From the NCBI GenBank assembly GCA_040357565.1, contig JBDODJ010000004.1: a stretch of 64,000 nucleotides of DNA; one strand, written 5' to 3'. Made by a program: the position numbers and the translations under genes. The notes below the pieces were generated by a model. The model did no database searches, was not told the DNA's origin, and saw only the letters and a list, made by a program, of their open reading frames with translations. This DNA is from Cercozoa sp. M6MM (Eukaryota; Protista; Endomyxa: Ascetosporea). Below, in pieces: positions 3,096 through 62,280 of this stretch. Position 1 is the first letter of the stretch. Every line of letters starts with the position of its first letter.

Positions 3096-5878
<2,783 letters not shown>

Positions 5879-6105
5879 ATTCCGTTTTGTCGTTGCCGCT
5901 GCCTGCGTCGCACGCTTTGTGGTCGGCGTGCTTTGCCGAAAAGCTCTGTGTTGTGGGCATTTGGGTTGCTCAATTTTGGGGTGTGCTGTACCCAATCATA
6001 ACTGAAAACTGTTGGTCGCAGTCCATTTGCGAGCGTGAGTCGGCTTTCGCATCCGAGCACCGTCAAAGGTGAGTACGCACTTCATTCGTCGGTAGCAACA
6101 GCACG

Positions 6106-6388
6106 ATGTCTCATCGCGTGCCGCGACGCGACTACTTTATCGCGAGCAAGTATCGCCTCGGGCAGAAGATCGGCAGCGGCTCGTTCGGTGACATTTACGC
6201 CGGCATTAGCATTCTCAGCAATGAGGAAGTTGCCATCAAGCTCGAGACGCACAAGACGCGCCACCCGCAGCTGGCCTACGAGTACAAATTGTACCGTCTT
6301 CTCTCTGGCGGTCCTGGCATCCCGCAGGTACGTTTTATCTTTGTGTGTGTATGTGTGTGTGTGCTTGTGTGTGTGCTTGTGTGTGTGC

Positions 6389-6427
<39 letters not shown>

Positions 6428-7778
6428 TGTGTGTGTGTGTGTGTGTGGGCGTGTGTGTGTGCGTATGTGTGTGTGTGCTTGTGTGTGGAGCGTGTGTGTG
6501 CTTGTGTGTGTGCTTGTGTGTGTATGTATGTGTATGTGTGTGTGCTCAGGTCTACTGGTTCGGCAAGGAGGGTGACTTCAACGCCATGGTGATGGAGATG
6601 CTGGGCCCGTCGCTCGAGGACCTGTTCAACTTCTGTTCGCGCAAGTTCACGCTCAAGACGGTGCTAATGCTGGCAGACCAGATGCTGGCGCGCATCGAGT
6701 ACGTGCACGCCAAGAGCTTCATTCACCGCGACATCAAGCCGGACAACTTCCTGGTTGGCCTCGGCAAGCGCAAACTCAACCAAGTGTTCGTGATCGACTT
6801 TGGCCTGGCCAAGAAGTACCGCGACCCGCGCACGCACCAGCACATCCCGTACGTGGAGCACAAGTCGCTCACGGGCACTGCGCGCTACGCGAGCATCAAC
6901 ACGCACCTCGGCATCGAGCAGTCGCGTCGCGATGATCTCGAGTCGCTCGGCTTTGTGCTGATGTACTTCAACCGCGGAGCGCTGCCGTGGCAGGGTTTGC
7001 GTGCCGGCACCAAGAAGGAGAAGTACGACAAGATATCCGAGAAGAAGATGTCGACGCCGGTCGAGGTGCCCATGCTCGTTTTGCTTTGTACTGTATATGA
7101 CTGGTGGTGTATAGTATGTATAATATGTGTATGTGTATGTACAATGTGTATATATCTGTGTGCAGGTGCTGTGCCGCCACTTCCCTCTCGAGTTCAGCAC
7201 GTACCTGAGTTACTGCCGATCGCTGCGCTTTGACGACAAACCGGACTACGCCTACCTGCGACGTCTGTTCCGCGACCTGTTTTTCCGGTCAGGCTTTGCT
7301 GCCGACTACCGCTTCGACTGGACTGTGCTCAACTACTACCACCGCATGAAGCGCGAAGTCACGGTACTTACTGTGTTCCATCTTGGTTCCAGATGACCTA
7401 TAGATGCACAATGTTCTTCTAAATAGAAGCGCCGCGCTGAGCTTCTGGGCCGTATGCGTCGCGAGGCTGCTGAGCTCGAGGAGAGGACTCGGCGCGAGAA
7501 CGCCGAGAACGCCGAGAACGAGCAAGAAGAGCAGCCTGCAGGTACAACCGAAGCAAATTTTCAGGACAGCAAAGCGTGACACCATGCATCTCCGCTGTAG
7601 CTGCTGAGGAGACCGAGGACCCGCTCGACCGTATGCAGCGCCAGATCGACAGACTGCGTGTGAGCGACGACCAGCAAGAGGCCGTGCAGAGCCGCAGCAG
7701 CTGGCGCCGCCGTAATTCTTTCTTCTCCGTTTAATTTCGGGTTTGACTGATGCGAAGTTTATTTTTTGTGCAGGCTAG
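6106..7778 (+). CDS. CSNK1: Casein kinase 1 (delta/epsilon/Hrr25-like), 6 exons
   Basis: [56 protein letters not shown]. Introns at 6328-6549, 7066-7165, 7363-7426, 7541-7600 and 7712-7773. Confidence 0.97.
6341..6543. repeat. (GT)n-rich microsatellite in CK1 intron 1
   Basis: Direct inspection. Confidence 0.95.
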
Positions 7779-16100: not shown

Positions 16101-19100
16101 CTGTCGTCGTCGCAGTGCCACACACGCACGTGGCTCGGCACGCTGCTCAGCGTCATCTACACTCCCAGTCAGACACGTGACCCTGACCCATCAGTCACAC
16201 TGATGGTGTGTGTACCAGCCGGGTCGCAGCACAGCGCCAGTCGGCCCACGTGCTCACTCGGCAGCAGTCGCACGTGCTCGCGCTCCAAGTCCACCGCCGC
16301 AAAGGCCTCCACAAACACCGGCACCTTGCCTTGCTGTCCGGGGGGGGGGGGTAAAGGACGGGGTAAAGACAGGGCAAAGAGGGAGAGGAGGGGGAAGGGG
16401 TAAAGAGGGGGTGAACAAGAGCAGAGAGAGGATAGACAGGGGGGGGGGGGGGGGGGGAAAGAGGTAAAATGCACTCTCGACACTCGCAGTCGGTTGACGA
16501 GTGCCTCCCGAAGCAGTCGCCACAGCAGCACGCGAACGCGCTCCGTGTGCCGCAACTGCATCTCGCAGGCACGCTCGCTGTGCACACGCAGACCGGTCCA
16601 TTTGTACCCAGGTCGCTCGGTCCATTTGTACCACTAGCGTACTAATATGTACCTAGAGTGTAGCCGACCCAGATCGGGCGGTTCGGCGACGGTGGCACGC
16701 AGCGCGTCGCAGTGCACCGACAGACGGCCCAGCATGGCCACCACCGTCGCCACGAACTCGTCCGGAAACACATGCTCCGCGCGGACGCTCCGCACGCACC
16801 GTGACACGTGTGCCGCCGCACGTGCCAACTGCACACCAATATAATCGTCAATCACACCACCCACACAACCGTCAGACACGTGGTACTGCGAGTGCTGTTC
16901 GCCACGCGTTCGACAGCTCCGTTTCAAACTCCTGCAAGGGGGGGGGGGGGGCTTAGAGGGGTGGAATGGGGGTAAAGGACGCGAGATAGAGAGGGCAAGA
17001 GGGGGGTAAGAACCTCACTGTGCTGCTGCAGGGCGTAGTGCTGCGTGTCGCGCAGCAGCGGCAGCAGCCACGACTCGACGTGACTCGTCACAGTCATCAC
17101 CAGGTCCGTGGCCTGTCCGTGTGGACAGGTACACGAGGGATACAAACAAACAGGTACACATGGACCGGTACACATGGACAGGTACACATGGACAGGTGCA
17201 CATGGACAGGTACACATGGACAGGTACACATGGACAGGGACAGCAGTACCAGCGAGCGCGGCGACGCGCGAACGCACACAGCGCCGAGCGACTTCAGAAT
17301 CGACATCTCGCCTGGCGCCACTGCCGACTCCGACACTCCTGGGGGGGGGGGGGGGTAAAGCACCTTCGAGCGGCACATGCTCGAGCTTGGACAGCGCGAG
17401 CTGCACGATGCCGACGGCGTTGCCGAGCGACAGCGGCGTCGTCGCCACCACGGCCGTCGCCACGTCCACCACGCGTGCCATCTCGCCCTTAACCAATTTG
17501 ACCCGTACAAACTGATCTCATCTCCGCCAGAAAAATAACCTTGTAGCCAGTCCTACCTCGAGTTGCAGCGCGTGCTGCAGCAGTCGCACCACGACGAGAT
17601 CGGCACGTTGCAGACAGCCTGCAGGGCGCAAATGAGTTTAAGCCCCTCCCACCAGTTTTGCCTTTACCCCTCCCACCCAGTTTTGCCTTTACCCCTCCCA
17701 CCAGTTTACCCCCCACCCCCCCAGTTTACCCCCCAGGTACCTCGTTCGAGCAGCGCGCGCACGCAGAAAACGGCGAATCGGTGCGGACGCCATCGCACGC
17801 GCGCGTCGTCCAACACCGACGCCACGGCCTGCAGCACGGCATCCAGTGTCGACACCTACGGGACCGTACATGTGTTACCGTCCATTTGTACCGTACATTT
17901 GTACCGTACATTTGTACCATACACGATATTTGTTTACTGTTTAGACGGTACCTGTACAAGATCGCCAACGGCTCGCCAGGCCGCCACCGCGTAGCTGCGA
18001 CACGTGTCAACGGCCTTACCCACTTCCTAACCTTCTTACCCCCCTCTTACCCCCATGTGTGAGACGTACCGCGTCGTGATGAGCGACAGATGCGACAGAA
18101 ACGCGTTGATTTTTTCACTCTGCTGCTGCACGTCGCCTGCGCCTGTGCCAGGGGTAAAGGGGGATGGAGGGGGGGGGGGGTAAAAGGGAGTACCCAGCCG
18201 TCGCAACGCTGCGACATGCGCCTCCGTTCTACGGCAGGGGGGGGAGGTAAAGAGAGTAACGGGAGTGGGTAGAACACACCTTTGCCGCAGCAGCGTGTCG
18301 ACGTCGGTGCAGACGGAATCGTCACCGTCAGCAACACCGTCATTGATGCGATTATTGATGCGATCATTGATGCCATCAGTGACACCGTCAGTATCAGCGT
18401 CACCGTCGGCACTGACAGTCTCGCTTTGATCGCCGTGCAGCAGCATGTTATCGCGCACCGTCATCAGTATCGGCATCGTCATACTACCGGGAAGGAATCG
18501 GGGGAAGATAGGGCCGGGAGGGGGGTAAAGACGTGGTAAGGTGACAGAGCGAGAGACAAAGGGGAGGGGTGAGGGCGGGAGGGGGGGGGGGGTAAACCCG
18601 TACCTCGACAGTTCGGACAGCGTCAGAGCGTCCGGCGCGAACACGGCGAGTTTGCGCAGCGTCAGTAGACACGCCTGCGCCAGTGCGTGCGTGCCAACCG
18701 ACATGTGACGCCGCAGCTTGCGCCACTCACCTGGGGGAACGGGGTCAATGGGGGTAAGTACGAAGCAAAAGGGGGTGGTGGGTAACGTAAGTGGGGTAAC
18801 GGGGGGAGGGGGAATACTCTCTTGACTAAAGGTGCGACGCAGTGCAGCGGCTACAATGTGGTACAGATACGGTACAGATGTACGGTATAGACGAACAACA
18901 CACACTGTACAGTTAAGGAAGCGGGTACCAATGTCGAACTCGTCCTCGGCGATTTCGTCGAGGTCGCCGAGATCGACGTCGTTGTCGCACGCGTCTACAC
19001 AAACTCTCAGTCACGTGGTCACTTTGCTGGTCACTTGGTCACTTGGTCAGGTGATCCCTCAGTCAGATGGTCACACAGATATATATATATATATATAAAT

Positions 19101-19930
19101 ATATATATACATATATATGTGTGTGTGTGAGTATGTGTACCGCAGGGTGTCGGATCGCGCAGCAGGGCCGCCACGTCGCGAATGAGCGCCGCCACCGTCG
19201 CCGTGCCGAGCAGTCGCCGCGACGGCGCGTGCTCCGCGAAGGCGTTGACGGCTCGCAACGCGTCCAATCGCACCGCCAGGGCCACTGTAACCACATGGTA
19301 GAGGATGGTGAGGGTAGGAGGTATAGTGAGGGGTGGATGAAAGCCAAAGGAATAGAGGGGTAGGAGAAAGGCAAAAGGATAAAAGAGAGCAAAGGGTCTC
19401 AGTGTACCCGAGCCAGTCGGCTGGAGAGCGCGAGCGCATGCGTCGATTGCCAAGTCATCGTAGCGCGCCAGCGACGTCGGCGGCGAGTGGCACTGGACGA
19501 TCAGGTGCGTCAGTGCCTGCAGTCCGACACGTGCGCGTAGCCACCTCGAACCGTCCAGGTCACGCACGATCTGCTTGTGCAGGTACCTCGCCTGTCCACA
19601 CGTGTTTAAATACACTCACTCACCAAACGCGATTCACCCCCCCCCCAGAAACCATACGGTATCACGCAGCCGACGTGGATAAGAAGCACTCCAGCGACAC
19701 AACTCGTCCCTATAACGTGCCCACATAGACTGACAGGACATGTACAACTGGACGGAAGGTACCGCCGCCGCCGGATCCGCGTGGTGTCGCCCATGCCGCT
19801 CTCCAGCACAGGCGGGTACAGGTTGCGCACATCTGCATGTTGTATGCAACTTACACGGCCTATTTTGAGGATATAACGATCTGTTACTCTGCTTGTATCG
19901 AGGTCGCGGCTTGCGACAACAGATGCACAT
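13137..19930 (-). CDS. EFR3: EFR3 homolog (ARM-repeat plasma-membrane scaffold of PI4KIIIalpha) with many low-complexity insertions
   Basis: Spliced N-terminus MCICCRKPRPRYKQ|NVRNLYP...DELCRWSASYPRRLRDT|ARYLHKQIVRDL...GLQALTHLIVQCH matches the EFR3 pattern (Cys cluster, RPRYKRLVDNIFP, IGAYL...RD...ALDQLLMACH). Confidence 0.75.
17119..17237. repeat. 14-bp minisatellite (TGGACAGGTACACA)n in an EFR3 intron
   Basis: About 6-7 near-identical copies. Confidence 0.9.
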
Positions 19931-20253: not shown

Positions 20254-23200
20254 CTACTCATCGTCAAAACGTGCATAGTTACGCGGCATTGATCGCGAAG
20301 CTGAGCGCGATTTGAGCGAACTCAGCTGTTCGAGGCGGCGTCGCGCGCGTGTTAGTTTCTGAAAAGGGAAAATTTTAGTTGTATTTTAGGAGGCAGCAAA
20401 GGCTGAGACAAAGGACCCACGGCTACCTCAAAAGCAGCGCGCTGCGAAGCCGTCTCGCGCGACGAGGCCCCAGTACCGCCGTTGCTTGCCGACGTGCCCG
20501 TGGACGTGCCGACCACCGCCACCTGCGCAGGGGCAAAGGCGGTAAAGGGGTACAGAGCACGGTATTTTTCATGTACCTCGTCGTCGTGATCGTCAAGATT
20601 GAGTCGTCCGCGCACGTCGCTCAGATGCGCACGCGCACGTGTCCGCGCGGACGCCAAGTGCTGGGTGCCGCTCTCTGTCCGCGCGGGTGGTGCTGTGCGT
20701 GCGCCCTCTGGTGTGCTGGTGCGTCGCTTGTCCAGCTGCACATATGTACATGTGATAGAAAGGTAGTGCAGAACACGGTGCTCGAATACCTTGGACGACG
20801 AGGATGACAGTGTTCTCGCCGAGGCGCGCGGCGGCGTGTGCCAGATCTCGTCACTGTGATGACCACTTCGATCACTGCGATGACCACTGCGATCATTACG
20901 GTGTCCACTTCGATCATCGTAACCGTCAGCGCGATCGCGACTGAGCTGGTGTCGCAGCACAGCACTCGGTGATACCGCCTTGTCGTCTGCGCATACAACA
21001 CACAGGGTGGCTACACAGACCTGACTGCACTGCGTACGGTCCATCTGTACGGTCCATCTGTACCGGAGGCAGAGACGTCAACCACTTCGCGCAGACGACG
21101 CTGTCGGCGTCGTAGTTCGTGCGCCACCTGCAGCAGCGCCTCGTGGTCCCGTCGCAGTGCCTGCGGGAAGAAGGTAAAGAGGGGGGAAGGGGATAAAGTA
21201 TAGGAAGTAACACCTCGGTCTCGCGTTGTGCCGCTTCGTAGCGCCGCTGCAACTGCTCGTTTTCGTCCTGTAGTCCTGCCACCTCTTGCTACAGGTGACA
21301 GGGCATATCCAAGGATCTCCGGGGGAGGGGGTAAAGGAAACCACCTGTGCACGCCGTTGCTGCGACCGCAGCATTTCGTTTTCTTCCTGTAATGCGGCGT
21401 TTCTTTGAACTGTCTGAGCCTACACACTCGTTTTAAAATTCGTACATTAGTTCATTTGTTTAGGGGAAGTACATGTCGTTGCTGCAATGTCTCGGCGTGC
21501 TGTCGCAGCGCCGACAGTTCTGACTGCGCCTGCTGCCATGACGAACGGAAACCCGTGCACTCGGATTGACTCTCCCTAAGCAATGCACGCGTGTACGTTT
21601 GGACTAAGGCAGAAAACTGTACCAAGCACAAAAACGTACCTCAAGGACGCTTCAGAGCGTTCGCGAAATTCCGCGAATTCGCGCGTCACTTTTCCGAGTC
21701 GTTCCTGCAGCACAATTTGCTCGTTCTGCAGTGCGCGTTTCTCCTCGCCGAATCTCGTATCGGCCTGGACAATAGCACTCCGCATGGATCGCAGGTGACG
21801 TAGTCTCAACGAGAACACGTACACTGAGCAATTCGCGTTGTAAGGTCGAATTCTCCTTTTGCGCTGCCGTGCTCACCTTTCGGATCTCGTCCTATAGCAC
21901 ACAGATGGGACGGTACATGTGAATCGTACAAAAGGTCATCTAGACATGCAATTACCTGGAGCAGGCGAACTGTGTCCTGTGCATGTCGTAGCTTTTGCAC
22001 ATTGCGTTCGCTTTCTTCGCTGACTTGGCGCAGTCTGCGCACGATTTCACCACAATTTCACCCCCCCCCCCATACCCTTTCCCCTCATATTACACGAAGT
22101 TAGCGCATGTGTGTTACTGTCTTTGCGTATTTTCTGACATTTCGCGCAATTTCTTTTCATACGTATATCGATCTTCGTCGATGCGCGACTCAGCGATTTT
22201 GAGTTTTTCTTGCAGGTTTCGCACAGTGTCTTGGAAGTGCGATACCTGTGTTTTGTTTTCGGAGAAATGCACGGAAGCAACATACACACACACAATTATA
22301 TTAATATGTGGTATCAAAAGGTACCTTTTCGCGGTGTTGCTTTTGCAGTTCGCTGAACTCGGAGGCTACCTGCACAAGAGTACATCGACATACCACATGA
22401 TGGTCACTCGAGACAATCAGTGCACAAGTCACCTCCTGAATAGCACTGGCCTGAGCACGTGCATGCTCTTGCAGAGTGCGCTCGCGCTGCTGCAGGCGCT
22501 GTTGTTCGGTCTGAAAATCCTCGCGGCGTTGGGCGAATTCTTCGCGCTCTTTTCGTGCCTGTTTATGTGGTCGTAGGTATAAAGGTAACGATACACTTGT
22601 TCACATATGCTGACAGAACACACACACACACCACATACACACACACAGACCTGTTCACGCAATCGAGCGACTTCAGCATCACGTTCTTCGACAACACTGC
22701 GGAACTGTGCAAATACAAACACACGGTAGATTGATTCAGGGTGTGTTGATACGGATTTATGTTGTGTTTGAAAGGAACCCGTTGAAACATGGCATCGTAT
22801 TTCTGGAGTTCCTTGTCGCGCTCCTACAAGAGTTAAGAGAAGGGAAGTAACTGGAGGGGTGTGGTAAAAGACAAAAGAAACCTCCAGCAGTCGCAGGTTG
22901 TATAAAAAGTCCTGTCGCAGTTTCTCGTGCCGTCTTCGCAGCTCGCTCTCTTCTCTCTACAGTCAAGCACGGTGACAAATCATTAGGTCAGTGGACTTGA
23001 GTTTAACAGATAAATGAAACCGTCATCGATACCGATAGCGACAGTGCAGAGGCAGACGGTGACGTCTCCACCAGCGGCGATGTGCCCTCGCTACCTTGCT
23101 TACCTAAGCACACATCGCAATGTGCACCCTGCCTGTTCTACGTGCACAGAGTTACCACTACTCTCGGTACTGACACGTGTGCGTGAACGAGGTCTCTGGG

Positions 23201-23599
23201 GTGAGAGTATCTGTGCGAACATACAGTCGATTCTGAAAGGCACGTCGGTAGAATACCTCATCAGTCTTTTGCAACGTATCAAACAGCACTGGGCTCTCTG
23301 TGTGCACACATGTCACATAGCCAGCAGCAATAGTTCCACACGAGCAAGCAGAGAAAACACACGCGATGATGCTGCTCGGGAAGGCGTCGACGGCGTCGGA
23401 GACGTGTCCTGCAGCAAGGCGCCAATTTTGGCCGACAGCGATGCTACTCGCTCTGCAGCGTATCAGAATCGCGCACACTCGAGTTTAATTTCACATGCAC
23501 TTTGATGTTGAAACCCAACAAGAACGAAAAGAAAACCAGTGAGAAAAAAGCACTACCTTCATCCAGTTTCCAGACGCGGTCATTGCCTGCCGACGACAT
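20254..23599 (-). CDS. Long coiled-coil protein (C-terminus weakly CCDC57-like), multi-exon
   Basis: Many heptad-rich exons (FQDTVRNLQEKLKIAESRIDEDRYTYEKKLREM; EEKRALQNEQIVLQERL). Ends ...SMPRNYARFDDE*. Confidence 0.6.
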
Positions 23600-23877
23600 C
23601 CTTGTTCGCCAAAATCGACTTGCTCGATCGTTGCCTATCCGGCACCGTCGATCACACTAACGTGATCGTCGTGCACCCTGCCACCACAGACACTGGCAAT
23701 GCTGCTAGAAACGCCCAATCGTTTGTTTTAAAGACGCGTTTCTTTTTAACTTATCCGCGCGTTCCGCTCTTGGCCGAAATGCTCTCATCTAATTGAGAGT
23801 TTGGCTAGCTCGCGCGTGTGAAACTTCAGTTTTACACTACACTGTTACAGTTAGAGGCGCGAAAAGCCGCAACGAAG

Positions 23878-25559
23878 ATGTCGCTTTTCGACAGCGACAG
23901 CGGGAGTGAAGATGAGGCACGCTGGGTTGCCACATCTCTGTCGTAACTCCTCCTCGTTGCATGTCTAAACCAAATGTTTGCTGGAATCTGGTGCATGTTG
24001 ACAGGGCCAAAGCGGAACCAAAGTACGAACCACAAGACGATTTTGTGCGAGCACCAAAACGACGTCGTACGTTTGCTGTCTCTACTTGCTGGTTTTAGTT
24101 GACATGTGTCTGGATTGTTGGTCTATCTTTAAAGGCGAAATTCGGGAGAAGCGCGAGCAGATGCCGACGAAATTCGAGTGGCGCATGCCTCCACGTATCG
24201 ATCAGGTATGATCTACCCTGCCTATATTGACATGTGTTACCCTATGTGTGCAGCTTTGGACGAATGCATCAGTCGGAACAAAGATTGATTTGCGATACGG
24301 TGCGTTGTTTTCGTGATAGTTCGACTTCCGCGCGGACGGGTTCATTTGTTTAGTATCGCGGAAGTTTCCGCGCGCGCGCTTCGATCCGCGTGCTTCCGCT
24401 GCGGGCAACTTTCACTTCCAGGTATTGCTTAAACATGTTGTGTGTTCAGTTGTAGATGCCCTCGCGTCCGCGCGGATGTGGTTGTGTCACCCTGGATAGT
24501 TGTACAAGCCACGTGTGACGGTGCAAGTGCATTCGACAGGCACAGTGCGTACCATGGGCAGCAAGTCACTGGTACTCTCCCTGTTTGGGGGAGGCTGTTA
24601 TTCCTGCAAGTATGACTCTTGTGCAGCTGGATGCACTCGTGGCCACAAGGATAGCTGCGCGTATGCTGGTATCTACCGCTTGTTTTCTATGTTGACACAG
24701 TAGAAGCGACGTGTGTTTCCGAGTGCAGGCACGTGTGCCCAAGCAACCAGAGGACTGGTCCAAGCACCACGGTAGGCAATACGACGAGTGGGGCCGTCTG
24801 CTGCCGTCCTCTGGTATCCCATTGTGCCCATGTTCTGAGTGGTCACTTAAAGTGGTCACTTGTGCACGTGTACCGTACTTATCACTGAGTAACTGAGCAG
24901 ACCCGGTGCTGCTGCCAAAGAGCGAGATTCACCTACGCGAACTACGCGAGTATCCGCACATTCGGCGTGTGCGTGACTTCTGCGTCTCGCTTGTCAGTGG
25001 CCAGGCCGATCTTGGCTTTGACGTCGATCTCAAAGACATGCACAATGCCTACGATCACCAGTGCCAGGTTTGTTTTTCTTTGTTCCATCTATAAGCAAGA
25101 CCTGTGTTGCTGCAGTACGACCCGCACGTGGACGAGGCACTCAAGTTTATCGCTCGAGAGGACCCGCCGCTTTCGTTCTCGCTGCGTGAGTCGGGCCAGA
25201 TAAGCTCGCTTCAGTGTCGCAGTGAGGACGACTTCTACCAGGCATTGCTGCTTTTTGTTTTTACCTACCGATGTATCGATACATCTATGCTTACATCTTT
25301 ATACTGGCAGGGCATGGAGGAGCTGTACGACATCGCGCAGCGCTTTCGAGTCGGCAAGGATGACGGCGACGACGACGTCGTGCTCGGAGATCTCAGTGAC
25401 TCTGATGGCGAGAACGACGATGTCGCGACCCAACAGACCGGCCCTCGTGAACCCACGACGACTGCGCAAGCTGCGCTGCCGCCTCTCCCGGATCTGCCAG
25501 GTTTGCCGGACTTGCAGCTGCCCGATTTGCCTGATCTCCCGGATCTGCCGGGGTTTTAA
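23878..25559 (+). CDS. Highly divergent TBP-like factor (TRF/TLF type), about 11 exons
   Basis: Two TBP core repeats after splicing. Repeat 1: PRIDQLWTNASVGTKIDLRYVSRKFPRARFDPRASAAGNFHFQLYKPRVTVQVHSTGTVRTMGSKS..ATRIAAR. Repeat 2: DFCVSLVSGQADLGFDVDLKDMHNAYDHQCQYDP..PPLSFSLRESGQI..SEDDFYQGMEELYDIAQRFR. Confidence 0.8.
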
Positions 25560-25735: not shown

Positions 25736-29071
<3,336 letters not shown>

Positions 29072-36463: not shown

Positions 36464-39074
36464 TTAGTGAAACACGCGGTAGTTCTCGGGCACGATAAAG
36501 TCACTCAAACGCATCCACTGCTCCGACAAAATGTCCGGGTCGCTGCGCAAAAACAAACGACGGTGGTAGGGTATTAAGTACGGTAGTCTAGAGGAGTGAG
36601 ACTACCCCTCGCGCTTTATGACACGCGGCACATGCGAAAACTGAAGTGCGGCAGGGAGTTCCACAACTTGCAGGCCATTCTGAGGCAACAAATGAGATTG
36701 CAAAAGCAAAGAGACCGAGTTAAAGAGGCAAAAGTAAATACCTTTCGCCGTGTGTGCAGCACACTGTGCTGAGTTAGCTGAGTCACCACTTGCTGCACCT
36801 GATTCTCGGGCAGCGCCTGCACTGATCACAAGTTGAACAGAAAGACAAAGTTGTCCCCAAGTTTACCTGCAGTGTGGTGTGCTTCGACACGTACTTCATG
36901 AAGGTGGTCAGCTACACAGGCAAAAAATGGGATGAGTATAACCGAGGGACCAACGGGGTAACAGGGCGGTAATACGTTGCGCAGCGTGGTGCCACGTTTG
37001 CGCTGCTGTTGTCGCAACAGCATGCACAGCACAAAGAACACGCGCCGCTCGGCCGTCGTCGCCTTGCGCAGATGTGCCTGTGCGCAAGAGGTGTGGAGTA
37101 AAACAAGGGGCGATGAAGGATTGCAGATACCTGGAAGGCAGGCGTGCGCTCTTTCTCGATGACTTGTCGCATACAGGAAGCACTGACCTGGGTGTCACCT
37201 GCTTCGTCTGCGTACACAGGTGGACGGGTGAAAGGAGGCAATGAGAGAGTAATAACAGCGTAGAGTAGTACGGGCAGCGTGCAGTGCCGATCGGCACAGT
37301 GCGAACAGTTTGCGCACGTCGGTGCTCTGCTTTACCACGGTGCGGCATGCCAGCACTAGGGCACGCCGGTCGAAGAAGCGGTCCAGTGCCTCTCTGTACA
37401 CACACGGCCCATGTTACCCAACACACAAGTACACACACTAGAGACACATACGGCTGGCCAAAGACGTCGGCGAAGCGGTTCTGCGTGATTTCCAGCAAGT
37501 GTCGTGGCATGTACGGCATGAAGGCCAGCGACTGCGTGCGCAACTCGGCCGCGTCAAAGGCACTCACGTACCTGCACACCGCACAGGAGGTGACAAGGGA
37601 CACCCAGGTTGGGGGAGGGTAAAAAGACTACCGATCGAGCAGGTCGAGTGTGTTGGCGATGGCTACAAGAGCGAGTCGCGAATGTACCGTGTGCGACAAC
37701 ATGTCACGCAGCGCGTCCTTCTGCGCCAGGCCGTCCACTGTGCAAGAGGTACTACAGGGGCAACAAACGGCAACACAAAGAGAGGTTACCTTCGTCCAAA
37801 AGTAAAATAATCATCGGCTGGTCACGTCTCCTCTTGCCTGTATCGACAGGTGTCAAGGGTAGAAGGAATGGAGGAGGGAGAAGTACCCTTGCCCGTGGTT
37901 AGAGCAGCGACACGTCGGAGTTTCTCCTCGGCGCCAGTTACCGATACCTAGGATTCAACAGGGTAAGCGAAAGCGAATTAACGGGAGGGGGGGGGGGAAG
38001 CAGGCACCTTCGCATGACCCAACTCTTGTAGAATCGACTGTGCCAATCGTGCGCCTGACGAAAATCTACAGATTTCTTAGATTACAGCAAGACGGCAAGG
38101 GAAAAGAAATCAAGAAAGAGGGTACTCCATGGCATTGCGTCGCACAACGACAGGTCGGAGCGACCACTCGCGCTGCTCGAGTTCGCGCAGGGCGCCGTTC
38201 AAAGCGGCAGTTTTACCGGCGCCGGGCTTGCCAGCAACATAGAGCACCTCGCCGCTTCGCTCTTCCACCACACGTCTCAGAAAAGCCATGATCTGAAGGG
38301 CCAAGGTAATGAGGTAAGAGGTATGAATAGGGGGTACGAATGGGTACGAATAGGCTGGGGCAAGGGGTACCTGCTGACATTCGTCCTGCCGACACGGCAG
38401 CGGCCACGGCGCCTCGCGGATGTCGAAACTGTTTAGTGCCTTGGGGAGAGGATAAAGGGTAAATGGTGAAAGGGGTAAAGAGGTAAAGAGGTAAAGGTAC
38501 CCGTTGCATGTCATCGAGCTCTGGAGGCGACTCCGGCGGCTGCTCGAACTCGTCGTCACTGGGTGCGACGGTCGGCACTTCGCTCACGTCAGGCGACGAC
38601 ATTGTTGTGCGCCTGACCACGTGATCACACACAGTTTGATTGGAGCTTTTCTCCACTGAGGTCCGACTGATACACATTGTGTACCTCCGCTTGCCACTGG
38701 CAGCAGTGATCGCACGCGACAGGCGCCACTCCGCAACACCACATCCCCCCAGCACTGGGATAAAGATTAAGAGGGTAAGAATGCAAGGGTGAAATTGATA
38801 CAAGGACACAGGGAACAAAGACACCTTTCTTTCGACGAGCGTCGTCGTCCTTTAGTGCAGCGAGGTCTTCACCTAACCACAACAGTGTTTACTGATTCAA
38901 TCGAAACATTGAAGGTACATGTGTGCACGCCGCAACTATTTAGTCGTTCGACCGTCTTCTTTCCAATTCCGGGTAGGTCAGTTAACCTGGAAGAGTACTG
39001 CGTATGTTTCTCTAACCGTCAGAAATACACGCTGCGACATACAATTGTGCGGCACTTTTTCGACGCCGTGACAT
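36464..39074 (-). CDS. CDC6: CDC6/ORC1-family AAA+ replication initiator (CDC6-like) with N-terminal HhH domain
   Basis: LPCRQDE, LYVAGKPGAGKT (Walker A), ILLLDEVDGL (Walker B), LVAIANTLDLLDR, LAFMPY, DVRKLFALCRSA. Confidence 0.85.
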
Positions 39075-60502: not shown

Positions 60503-60698
60503 AACGATTAATTTTCGCTGTGCCGGCCGGTGAACGGACCAGACTAGCGTAGCATGGGAGTCACGGTCGTTACGTGCGCGGCATTGTGACGGTACGTTTG
60601 CGTTCTTGTCTTCAAGTTCTAGTCCATTCAGTTCTAATTAACTATCTGCGCTGGTACGCATCTTAGTGGCGACTGCTACGCAATAGAATTCGAACAGC

Positions 60699-62280
60699 CT
60701 AGTAATTGTAGCGCTTGCGGCGCAGAAGGGCGTTCTTCGACAGATCGTGCACCGTGAAGGATATCGAAACGGCCTAGCAAAGCGCGTGGCACAATAGCCG
60801 GTGCAGAAGCACACAAGAGGTACAATGGAAGTAGATGGTACAACAGGTCCTTTGATCCAGTTCATGCCGAGTGCTTTGAACCACCCGTGTCTAATGCCTT
60901 CGCTCTTGAGAATGCTCTTGAGCAGCTTGAAGGTACCCTCGGTTTTTGCTGTATACCAAGGTGTGGTATACACATGCAAGGGCACACCAACATATGAAGG
61001 GAAGACCAGGGTACATTTGGAGGTTTGCATGCGTCGTCGCACAATATCAAAGGGATACGACGCACTCTGGCCGAGCAGACCGGCCAGGCAGCCGGCAGCC
61101 ACTCGCTCGTAGGTGTACAGTTCACGATCGTGAACGATGTTCCTTCTCTGCATGGCGACTCGCTTCAGTCCCTGTACATGTGGCCATACTAGCACACTGT
61201 CTCCACGTTAAACTGCAGACTAAATGGAGCACACCTCATATGCGAGAAAGTTGCACCCAGCGTATGGAACTACGCCCTACTTGGGCATATGAACGGGATC
61301 GCACATGCCTTCGAAACAGCATAAACAACAGCAGCAGTTACGATCAATGTCGGCCACAGACCACGGTATAGTGCGGGCAGACCGCCTTCTTGCCAGGCAG
61401 CAAAGAGACATCGCGGCACGCGCCACCTGACTGTTCTCACAAGTGAATACACGCTGACAGGAATGAACGGGGTTACATGTAGATACCTGTGGGTTCAGAC
61501 GGGTGTGCCGCCACCTCTGCAGCATACACAGCCGTATGCATAGCACACCAGTGTGTTTCATAAGAAAGTACCAGCAGCAAGTCGCGCACGTGCCAATTCG
61601 AGCGGGTAGCATGCCAGTGTGGCCACCTTCACCAAAAATGCATCCACACATGCTCACACAGGGAAAAGGAACGTACCACACCACTCGCGGATCCGCACAG
61701 AAAATGTCGCAGATTGGCGAATCCTCCTGTGTTTTCACTTTGGCTGTCGCTGCTTTCTCTCGTTCTGCGTGGTCTCGTTACAAGGTTCAACGCGTCATAC
61801 ACTGTGAATACGATGGCTGCACACACAGAAGGAATGAAAATTGCACTCTTGGCATAGACACACACAAGGAGCAGGTACCTGCATGTGGTACGACACGCAT
61901 CAATGTGGCTGAGTGGCCTTTCCACAGCGCTTTTGAACCGCCCTCTCGTGCTATGCCTAAACGCATACCCTTAAAATACGCCAAGACAACGAGTGTGTGA
62001 ATGAGGAAAGCATTGGTACGACGACCGCGTTGAACGGCATCGTTGAAAGTAAACTTGCGCGACGGCGATACCTGGTACAAAATTTTGAGACGGTCGGCGG
62101 GTGCTATGACGGTTTTGGCGCATGCACCTAATAACAGGAAGACCATTTTAAGCAGGACAGCCCATCTCGCGCGAGCCGAGGTAAGATTCTTATTGAGCGA
62201 AGAAACAACATGTAGCAACACGCAACACCTGCCAGACCACCGCACAGCAGCGACTCAGTTGTCGAAAGCTGTCCCGACAT
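60699..62280 (-). CDS. SLC25A42: Mitochondrial carrier, CoA transporter SLC25A42/Leu5-like
   Basis: Three carrier repeats: GGLAG|ACAKTVIAPADRLKILYQ, LWKGHSATLMRVVP, YPLELARAR, LYRGLWPTLI|GVVPYAG, GQSASYPFDIVRRRMQ, MNWIKGP. Confidence 0.88.

What the first reader, a model, noticed from the sequence alone, without database searches (positions are those of the whole stretch)
23878..25559. TBP-like factor that has lost all four DNA-intercalating phenylalanines
Seen: the spliced protein has two TBP core repeats. The positions of the four Phe that kink the TATA box (TBP KRFAA, LIFSSG, ELFPG, LIFVSG) read PRASAA, QVHSTG, PHVDEA and SLRESG. Both conserved QN asparagines are also missing (IDQLW, VSLVS). 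Established: these Phe and Asn residues are required for TATA recognition, and Phe-substituted paralogs (metazoan TRF2, dinoflagellate TLF) do not bind TATA. Inference: this is a lineage-specific TBP paralog with different or no DNA specificity, implying an alternative promoter-recognition pathway.
Basis: partly seen in the sequence, partly recalled or inferred. Interest (0 to 1): 0.8.

Follow-up and report, generated by a model that had tools for sequence, protein, structure and literature searches.

The report
TBP relative that cannot read TATA
This single-celled eukaryote has an intact, spliced gene for a relative of the TATA-binding protein that is predicted to keep the normal saddle shape but has replaced all 15 residues that read the TATA box, so it likely helps start transcription without recognising TATA; whether it is an extra copy or the organism's only one is untested.

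Summary
An 11-exon gene (23878-25559, +) encodes P0001, 350 aa, labelled by its source as Cercozoa sp. M6MM (Rhizaria). Pfam TBP E 2e-15; the predicted model overlays yeast TBP-TATA on 180 of 180 residues (rmsd 1.7 A). The four Phe are S, H, D, R and the two Asn are Q, L. None of the 15 base-contacting residues is kept (the only such row of 65), while 28 of 42 buried positions remain similar. One of two TFIIB-contact acids is lost, and 43 residues are inserted between the lobes. The best relative is a foraminiferan protein, and all 3 named rhizarian rows share a Trp just before the core, so this is probably not species-specific. Trees do not place it stably. 'Paralog' is untested: no genome was available, and Giardia and Lingulodinium have Phe-poor TBPs as their only reported TBP. 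Phe-less TBP-like factors are known; this is an extreme and apparently undescribed rhizarian variant.

The parts
23878..25559 (+). TBP-family gene, 11 coding exons (23878-23942, 24005-24066, 24135-24205, 24254-24299, 24354-24421, 24500-24571, 24627-24668, 24729-24813, 24901-25067, 25116-25241, 25311-25559), product P0001, 350 aa
   Evidence: Exon model translates exactly to P0001; Pfam TBP E 2e-15
23878..24184 (+). N-terminal extension (aa 1-59): acidic start, basic KRRR cluster (possible nuclear localisation signal, inferred), Trp58 eight residues before the N69 position
   Evidence: Sequence; low pLDDT for aa 1-40; Trp count
24185..24737 (+). TBP lobe 1 (aa 60-145): N69>Q66, F99>S96, F116>H115; helix H2 basic patch partly kept (R137, R141, K145>R kept; K133>L, K138>I)
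24738..24965 (+). Inter-lobe linker carrying a 43-residue insertion (aa about 146-192), low-confidence in both models
   Evidence: F116-to-N159 spacing 86 against 43-44 in canonical rows; pLDDT 52-60, 48-59
24966..25355 (+). TBP lobe 2 (aa 193-283): N159>L201, F190>D232, F207>R250; TFIIB stirrup E186>D228 kept acidic, E188>H230 lost
25242..25310 (+). GC-AG intron of 69 nt, in frame and stop-free
   Evidence: the match to P0002 runs unbroken across the splice
25356..25559 (+). Acidic and Leu-Pro-Asp-repeat C-terminal tail (aa 284-350), predicted unstructured
   Evidence: Sequence; pLDDT 44-61

Best explanation
The gene encodes an intact TBP-family protein with a predicted normal saddle whose 15 TATA-reading residues are all replaced, and it likely works as a second, TATA-independent initiation scaffold that partner proteins place on promoters, beside a more ordinary TBP presumed to lie elsewhere in the genome. 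Shown: the open spliced frame, the two-lobe homology and the residue changes. Predicted: the fold. Inferred from known TBP structures: without the Phe wedges and the Asn pair, and with charged side chains (D232, E233, R121, R250) on the concave face, it cannot kink and open a TATA minor groove; five of the seven Lys/Arg in my backbone-contact list of lobes 1-2 that are basic in the reference and scored here are no longer basic or only partly compensated, so DNA affinity on its own is probably weak. Inferred: the kept D228 and three basic residues on helix H2 still allow some contact with a TFIIB-like and a TFIIA/TAF-like partner, as metazoan TRF2 does. Inferred and untested: it belongs to an old rhizarian set of divergent TBP-like factors, and another TBP does the housekeeping work.
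For: Fold: Pfam E 2e-15; model on 69 sequences pLDDT above 87 over both lobes, Z 19.4, rmsd 1.7 A, 180 of 180 residues to 1ytb; a second model from 9 divergent sequences only gives the same strand and helix order. Selective change: 0 of 15 base contacts identical or similar (mean BLOSUM62 -1.93) against 28 of 42 buried positions similar (+2.00); only row of 65 with 0 of 15. Intact frame over 10 introns, exon GC 0.59 against intron GC 0.38-0.51. For a second copy: loss of E188, one of two acids that PMC7221094 (passages) calls conserved TFIIB/Brf contacts, and of K133/K138, is hard to square with serving all three polymerases; the two foraminiferan relatives fall in separate well-supported groups (100/99 and 98/96), as paralogs would. 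Relatives: best hit P0002 from Nonionella stella (E 4e-18, next 2e-12); P0041 from Reticulomyxa filosa; Trp before the core in 3 of 3 named rhizarian rows and 10 of 64 rows in all.
Against: No canonical TBP of this organism was seen, because none could be searched for. The only R. filosa entry found in the reference alignment of PMC7221094 is this divergent type (P0041/X6NZS6; supplement search), and that paper defined orthologs by reciprocal best hit with human TBP (section 17), which suggests it may be that species' main TBP. Sole Phe-poor TBPs exist. The 12-row group holding all three rhizarian rows (93/93) dissolved when three long branches were removed, and AU tests reject neither a place with TRF2 rows (p 0.20) nor with canonical rows (p 0.146). 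One canonical-type row (P0073, unnamed) also has the Trp. Partner binding and DNA binding were not tested.
Confidence: 0.52

Rival explanations
1. It is the organism's main or only TBP. The lineage has given up TATA boxes, and this protein serves the polymerases as a scaffold recruited by other factors, as in Giardia and dinoflagellates.
For: Precedents: single Giardia TBP with 13 of 15 contacts changed (PMC12209930); Lingulodinium with TLF and no TBP (PMC5029490). R. filosa's entry in a reciprocal-best-hit alignment is the divergent type. All 3 named rhizarian rows in my set are divergent; none of the 30 proteins looked up was a canonical rhizarian TBP (29 of the 72 other hits were looked up, chosen mostly for being divergent, so this is weak). 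AU does not reject a place among canonical rows.
Against: More extreme than the Giardia protein (0 of 15 kept), with E188, K133 and K138 also lost and a 43-residue insertion. Two foraminiferan proteins fall in different groups, which points to more than one TBP-like gene per genome.
Confidence: 0.33
2. It no longer binds DNA or starts transcription, and acts as a decoy or structural subunit that holds TBP partners (TFIIA, TAFs, Brf1) or fills a TBP-shaped slot in a complex.
For: Core lobes have net charge near +2 (24 K/R, 22 D/E) against +14 in the plant reference; R98, R105, K120, R196, K201 and K211 are no longer basic. TRF2 can repress by sequestering TFIIA (PMC3142196, passages).
Against: Ser/Thr backbone contacts T112, S118, S209 and basic K110, K127, K218 are kept, and new Arg/Lys appear on the concave face (R121, R250, K236), which fits some nucleic-acid binding. 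Half of the H2 basic patch that binds these partners is lost.
Confidence: 0.1
3. It is a decaying duplicate, or a captured giant-virus TBP, with no current role.
For: Longest or near-longest branch in the trees; no close relative found; the language-model search ranked giant-virus TBP clusters first (0.92).
Against: Open frame across 10 canonical introns; buried positions conserved while the DNA face is not. Structural matches are closer to cellular TBPs (E 1e-16, 17-21% identity) than to viral ones (best E 5e-11, mostly 6-15%). Best sequence relative is a rhizarian protein.
Confidence: 0.05

Closest known systems
Canonical eukaryotic TBP (Pfam PF00352; yeast Spt15, PDB 1ytb; human 1cdw)
   Same: Two-lobe saddle, predicted to overlay 180 of 180 residues at 1.7 A; buried residues and the glycines after strands 4 and 4' kept
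   Different: 0 of 15 base-contact residues, no intercalating Phe, E188 lost, K133/K138 lost, 43-residue linker insertion, acidic/Pro tail; about 21% identity
Dinoflagellate TBP-like factor (Crypthecodinium cohnii TLF; PMC5029490, passages)
   Same: All four Phe absent
   Different: Reported to prefer TTTT; no named dinoflagellate sequence was in my set, so kinship and the other contact residues were not compared
Giardia intestinalis TBP (PMC12209930, section 4 and passages)
   Same: Saddle kept while the DNA face is rebuilt; both Asn changed
   Different: Giardia keeps one Phe and the Pro (13 of 15 changed), is a single gene and prefers single-stranded DNA; P0001 changes all 15, its copy number and ligand are unknown
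Metazoan TRF2/TLF/TBPL1 (PMC3142196, passages; P0016 named TBP-like 1)
   Same: Does not bind TATA (TRF2, reported); nematode rows also have no Phe at the four positions
   Different: The TRF2 rows keep both Asn and both stirrup Glu; described from animals only; orthology neither shown nor rejected
Reticulomyxa filosa X6NZS6 (P0041) and Nonionella stella EP01083_P233898 (P0002)
   Same: Rhizarian, both Asn lost, Trp-x-x-Pro-Pro before the core, acidic N-terminus
   Different: They keep two and one Phe, keep E188, and lack the long insertion; uncharacterised; 23-30% identity

Membership tests
TBP family (PF00352) | Pfam TBP match above the gathering threshold, two repeats | tested here: met
   56.8 bits against cut-off 22.9, 2 stretches
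TBP family (PF00352) | Two-lobe saddle fold | tested here: met
Predicted models; Z 15.6-20.4 to 38 TBP entries, next unrelated row 8.8.
Canonical TATA-binding TBP | Four intercalating Phe | tested here: not met
   S96, H115, D232, R250
Canonical TATA-binding TBP | Asn pair and the other minor-groove contacts (11 residues) | tested here: not met
   0 of 11 kept; list from PMC12209930, mapped to yeast numbers from recall
Canonical TATA-binding TBP | Two acidic stirrup residues for TFIIB/Brf (E186, E188) | tested here: not met
   D228 kept acidic, H230 not; feature from PMC7221094
Canonical TATA-binding TBP | Basic patch on helix H2 for TFIIA, TAF1, Brf1, Mot1 | tested here: inconclusive
   3 of 5 positions basic; position numbers recalled
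Canonical TATA-binding TBP | Binds and bends TATA DNA | not testable with these tools
   Needs biochemistry
Metazoan TRF2/TLF | Groups with TRF2 in a tree | tested here: inconclusive
   Not grouped in the free trees, but AU p 0.20
Metazoan TRF2/TLF | Coexists with a canonical TBP | not testable with these tools
   No genome held
Dinoflagellate TLF | All four Phe replaced | tested here: met
   feature from PMC5029490
Dinoflagellate TLF | Groups with dinoflagellate TLF; prefers TTTT | not tested
   No named dinoflagellate sequence was in the set
Giant-virus TBP | Closest relatives viral, intronless viral context | tested here: not met
   Ten spliceosomal introns, eukaryotic neighbours; best sequence and structure matches cellular. 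No named viral TBP was put in the trees

The most novel reading that the evidence does not exclude
This protein is the organism's only TBP, and it stands for a large part of Rhizaria (foraminifera and their relatives) that has rebuilt TBP so that no TATA-reading residue is left: an independent, supergroup-scale loss of TATA recognition, more complete than in Giardia, with a new 43-residue module between the lobes.
Probability: 0.22. Interest if true: 0.78.

Novelty: new variant of a known kind. Interest (0 to 1): 0.48.

Why it matters
TBP is among the most conserved proteins of eukaryotes, and Rhizaria are a major group whose transcription machinery I found no description of (searches; open-access library only). 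A TBP with the whole DNA-reading face replaced and the fold intact is a natural test of what TBP does apart from reading TATA. It also gives a cheap test of the reported link between TBP's Phe pairs and the presence of NC2 and BTAF1/Mot1 (as summarised in PMC6672047). The kind itself is known, which limits the surprise: 10 of 65 scored rows among this protein's own hits also have no Phe at the four positions.

Tried and rejected
Whole-genome search for a canonical TBP, TFIIB, NC2 and Mot1: no genome held. RNA support: no RNA holder listed. Word-index protein searches found only P0001 itself or, with the 9-sequence alignment, 10 proteins with no new rhizarian name. Scans of viral contigs with P0001, P0032 and P0028 and of metagenome contigs with P0001 and a 3-sequence alignment found no related locus; these scans need close, unspliced matches, so the blanks say little. 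Two wider alignments had no stretch conserved enough to scan with. TATAWAWR in the window: 57 matches against 3 expected, nearly all in (TA)n microsatellites, so uninformative about promoters. Supplements of a rhizarian comparative-genomics paper (PMC11069148, 4 files searched) held no PF00352, TBP or TATA entry. Koster 2015 and Guillebault 2002 are not held; they are cited only through reviews, and Koster's species table may already cover a rhizarian TBP. One supplementary file of PMC7221094 could not be read. Grouping of P0001 with unnamed rows P0034/P0045 was rejected (AU p 0.006); grouping with P0002/P0032 was not rejected (p 0.37) but is not shown. The N-terminal acidic-Trp likeness between P0001 and P0002 is not significant (E 7.2) and the model gives that part pLDDT under 50, so the idea of a self-binding TAND-like peptide has no support. 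The giant-virus ranking by the language model was not repeated for P0002, whose top clusters were eukaryotic. No complex prediction was run: no partner from this organism was available.

Full report
Gene model. The window is eukaryotic DNA with short introns; no whole genome is held. Reading 23878-25559 on the + strand gives 11 exons separated by nine GT-AG introns and one GC-AG intron of 48-87 nt. A search with the last open frame returned one protein, P0001, 350 aa, labelled by its source 'hypothetical protein MHM6MM_000452 [Cercozoa sp. M6MM]', a rhizarian. With the intron 5 acceptor at 24499 the exon model equals P0001 exactly; my first model used an acceptor 9 nt later and lacked three residues. 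Exons are more GC-rich (0.59; GC3 0.66) than introns (0.38-0.51). The match to P0002 runs unbroken across the GC-AG junction. Expression was not checked.

It is a TBP. Pfam PF00352 scores 56.8 bits, E 2e-15, two stretches. phmmer aligns both lobes to yeast, human, plant and archaeal TBPs in the PDB. AlphaFold2 on a 69-sequence alignment gives block pLDDT 87-98 over both lobes and low confidence for the termini and the linker. The model matches 38 TBP entries at Z 15.6-20.4, with 180 of 180 residues of 1ytb at 1.7 A, and the next unrelated row at Z 8.8 (Foldseek). A second model from nine divergent sequences with no canonical TBP has the same order of strands and helices. The aligned ranges (for example 60-278 to 63-235) fit the sequence register: offsets of +3 at the start and -43 at the end, that is 46 inserted residues.

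The DNA face. I used a canonical plant TBP from the hits (P0008) as reference, numbered as yeast. The 15 base-contact positions come from PMC12209930 (section 4), mapped to yeast numbers from recall; the backbone and buried lists are my own, from recall of the structure. So are the other nine: 0 of 15 identical or similar, mean BLOSUM62 -1.93. At 42 buried positions 11 are identical and 28 similar, mean +2.00; at 13 backbone positions 3 are identical and 8 similar, but R98, R105, K120, R196, K201 and K211 are no longer basic. The lobes carry 24 K/R and 22 D/E against 28 and 14 in the reference. Of 71 aligned rows (76 held; two very long hits and three cluster members left out), 65 had no gap at the 15 positions; P0001 is the only one with 0 of 15, but 10 of 65 have no Phe at the four positions and 2 of 65 no aromatic residue there. 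The set is made of hits to P0001 and is biased to divergent proteins. Change concentrated on one surface with the core kept argues for a maintained protein with an altered function, not decay (inference).

Partner surfaces. PMC7221094 (passages) names two acidic stirrup residues for TFIIB/Brf and a basic cluster on lobe 1 for TFIIA, TAF1, Brf1 and Mot1. P0001 keeps the first acid (D228) and loses the second (H230); on helix H2 it keeps R137, R141 and a basic residue at 145 and loses K133 and K138. A 43-residue insertion lies between the lobes (spacing 86 against 43-44); unnamed rows P0003, P0023, P0028 and P0049 also have long linkers without clear likeness to it.

Relatives. The index-free search gave 73 hits. 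The best, P0002 (E 4e-18), is from the foraminiferan Nonionella stella; P0041 is from Reticulomyxa filosa. I looked up 29 of the 72 other hits; five carried an organism name (those two, a plant, Apiculatamorpha and a nematode TBP-like 1). A Trp about eight residues before the N69 position is present in 10 of 64 scored rows, among them all three named rhizarian rows and none of the other named rows; one of the ten (P0073) is an unnamed canonical-type TBP. In a 36-row tree P0001 falls in a 12-row group (93/93) that holds both foraminiferan rows, in separate subgroups. With three long branches removed that group dissolves into an 18-row polytomy (100/98) of divergent proteins that includes the TRF2 rows. 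AU tests do not reject P0001 with TRF2 rows (p 0.20), with canonical rows (p 0.146) or with P0002/P0032 (p 0.37). So a rhizarian family is suggested by best hits and one shared motif, not shown by trees. The outgroup rows were taken as archaeal from length and domain content, not from names. A viral origin, hinted at by the language-model search, is not favoured: ten introns, and cellular TBPs fit the model better than viral ones.

Extra copy or only copy. This is the open point. For an extra copy: the loss of E188 and half the H2 patch, the insertion, and two different foraminiferan types. For the only copy: Lingulodinium has Phe-less TLF and no TBP in its transcriptome (PMC5029490, passages), Giardia has one TBP gene with 13 of 15 contacts changed that prefers single-stranded DNA (PMC12209930, abstract, passages and section 4), and the only R. 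filosa entry found in the reference alignment of PMC7221094, whose orthologs were defined by reciprocal best hit with human TBP, is P0041 (supplement rows; section 17). I put these at about 0.5 and 0.33. Of 18 neighbouring frames scanned, the Pfam matches were a kinase, an AAA ATPase, mitochondrial carriers and two weak coiled-coil hits; none concerns transcription.

Mechanism. Most likely the protein keeps the saddle as a docking platform, does not wedge into a TATA box, and is brought to promoters by partners, as reported for TRF2, which lacks TATA binding but binds TFIIA and TFIIB (PMC3142196, passages). Residue changes are shown; the fold is predicted; loss of TATA binding is a strong inference from structure; partner binding, promoter role and copy number are untested.

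Novelty. TBP-like factors without the Phe wedges are known from animals, dinoflagellates and Giardia. Four searches for rhizarian TBPs (listings only, plus passages of PMC6672047, PMC6759080 and PMC10449503) found no description; subscription papers, including Koster 2015, could not be read. Earlier notes of this scan hold divergent TBP copies in fungi, archaea and viruses but nothing on this protein or genome. Verdict: real, intact, an extreme new variant of a known kind; interest 0.48, rising to about 0.78 if it proves to be the only TBP of a large rhizarian lineage.

Noticed in passing
window 23512-23796 (+): A 94-codon open frame just upstream has an FLTYP stretch that recalls motif I of circular-ssDNA-virus Rep proteins (recalled); no Pfam match, probably chance.
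   Followed up: yes
window 22300-23790 (-): A coiled-coil-rich gene appears to run on the opposite strand and may start within about 100-400 bases of the TBP-like gene's ATG, which would make a short head-to-head promoter with no TATAWAWR match. Its start was not mapped.
   Followed up: no
window 25242-25310: In-frame, stop-free GC-AG intron; retention would add 23 residues to the last helix of lobe 2. Six other introns of the gene are also multiples of three.
   Followed up: partly
window 25480-25556 (+): The protein ends in repeated Leu-Pro-Asp units after an acidic stretch; unnamed relative P0036 also ends in an acidic tail followed by a short Leu-Pro motif.
   Followed up: no
window 6073-7233 (+), 38110-38583 (-), 60638-62254 (-): Ordinary eukaryotic genes: a casein kinase 1-like kinase, an AAA ATPase (Cdc6-like by eye) and a mitochondrial carrier.
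   Followed up: partly
window 4500-4900, 25970-26155, 19080-19119, 28068-28119 and others: Long (CA)n and (TA)n microsatellites, many inside introns; five runs of N (410 bases) lie in or next to such repeats.
   Followed up: no
P0073: Unnamed TBP with all four Phe and both Asn that also has the Trp before the core; if it is rhizarian it would show the Trp-marked lineage began as a canonical TBP.
   Followed up: partly
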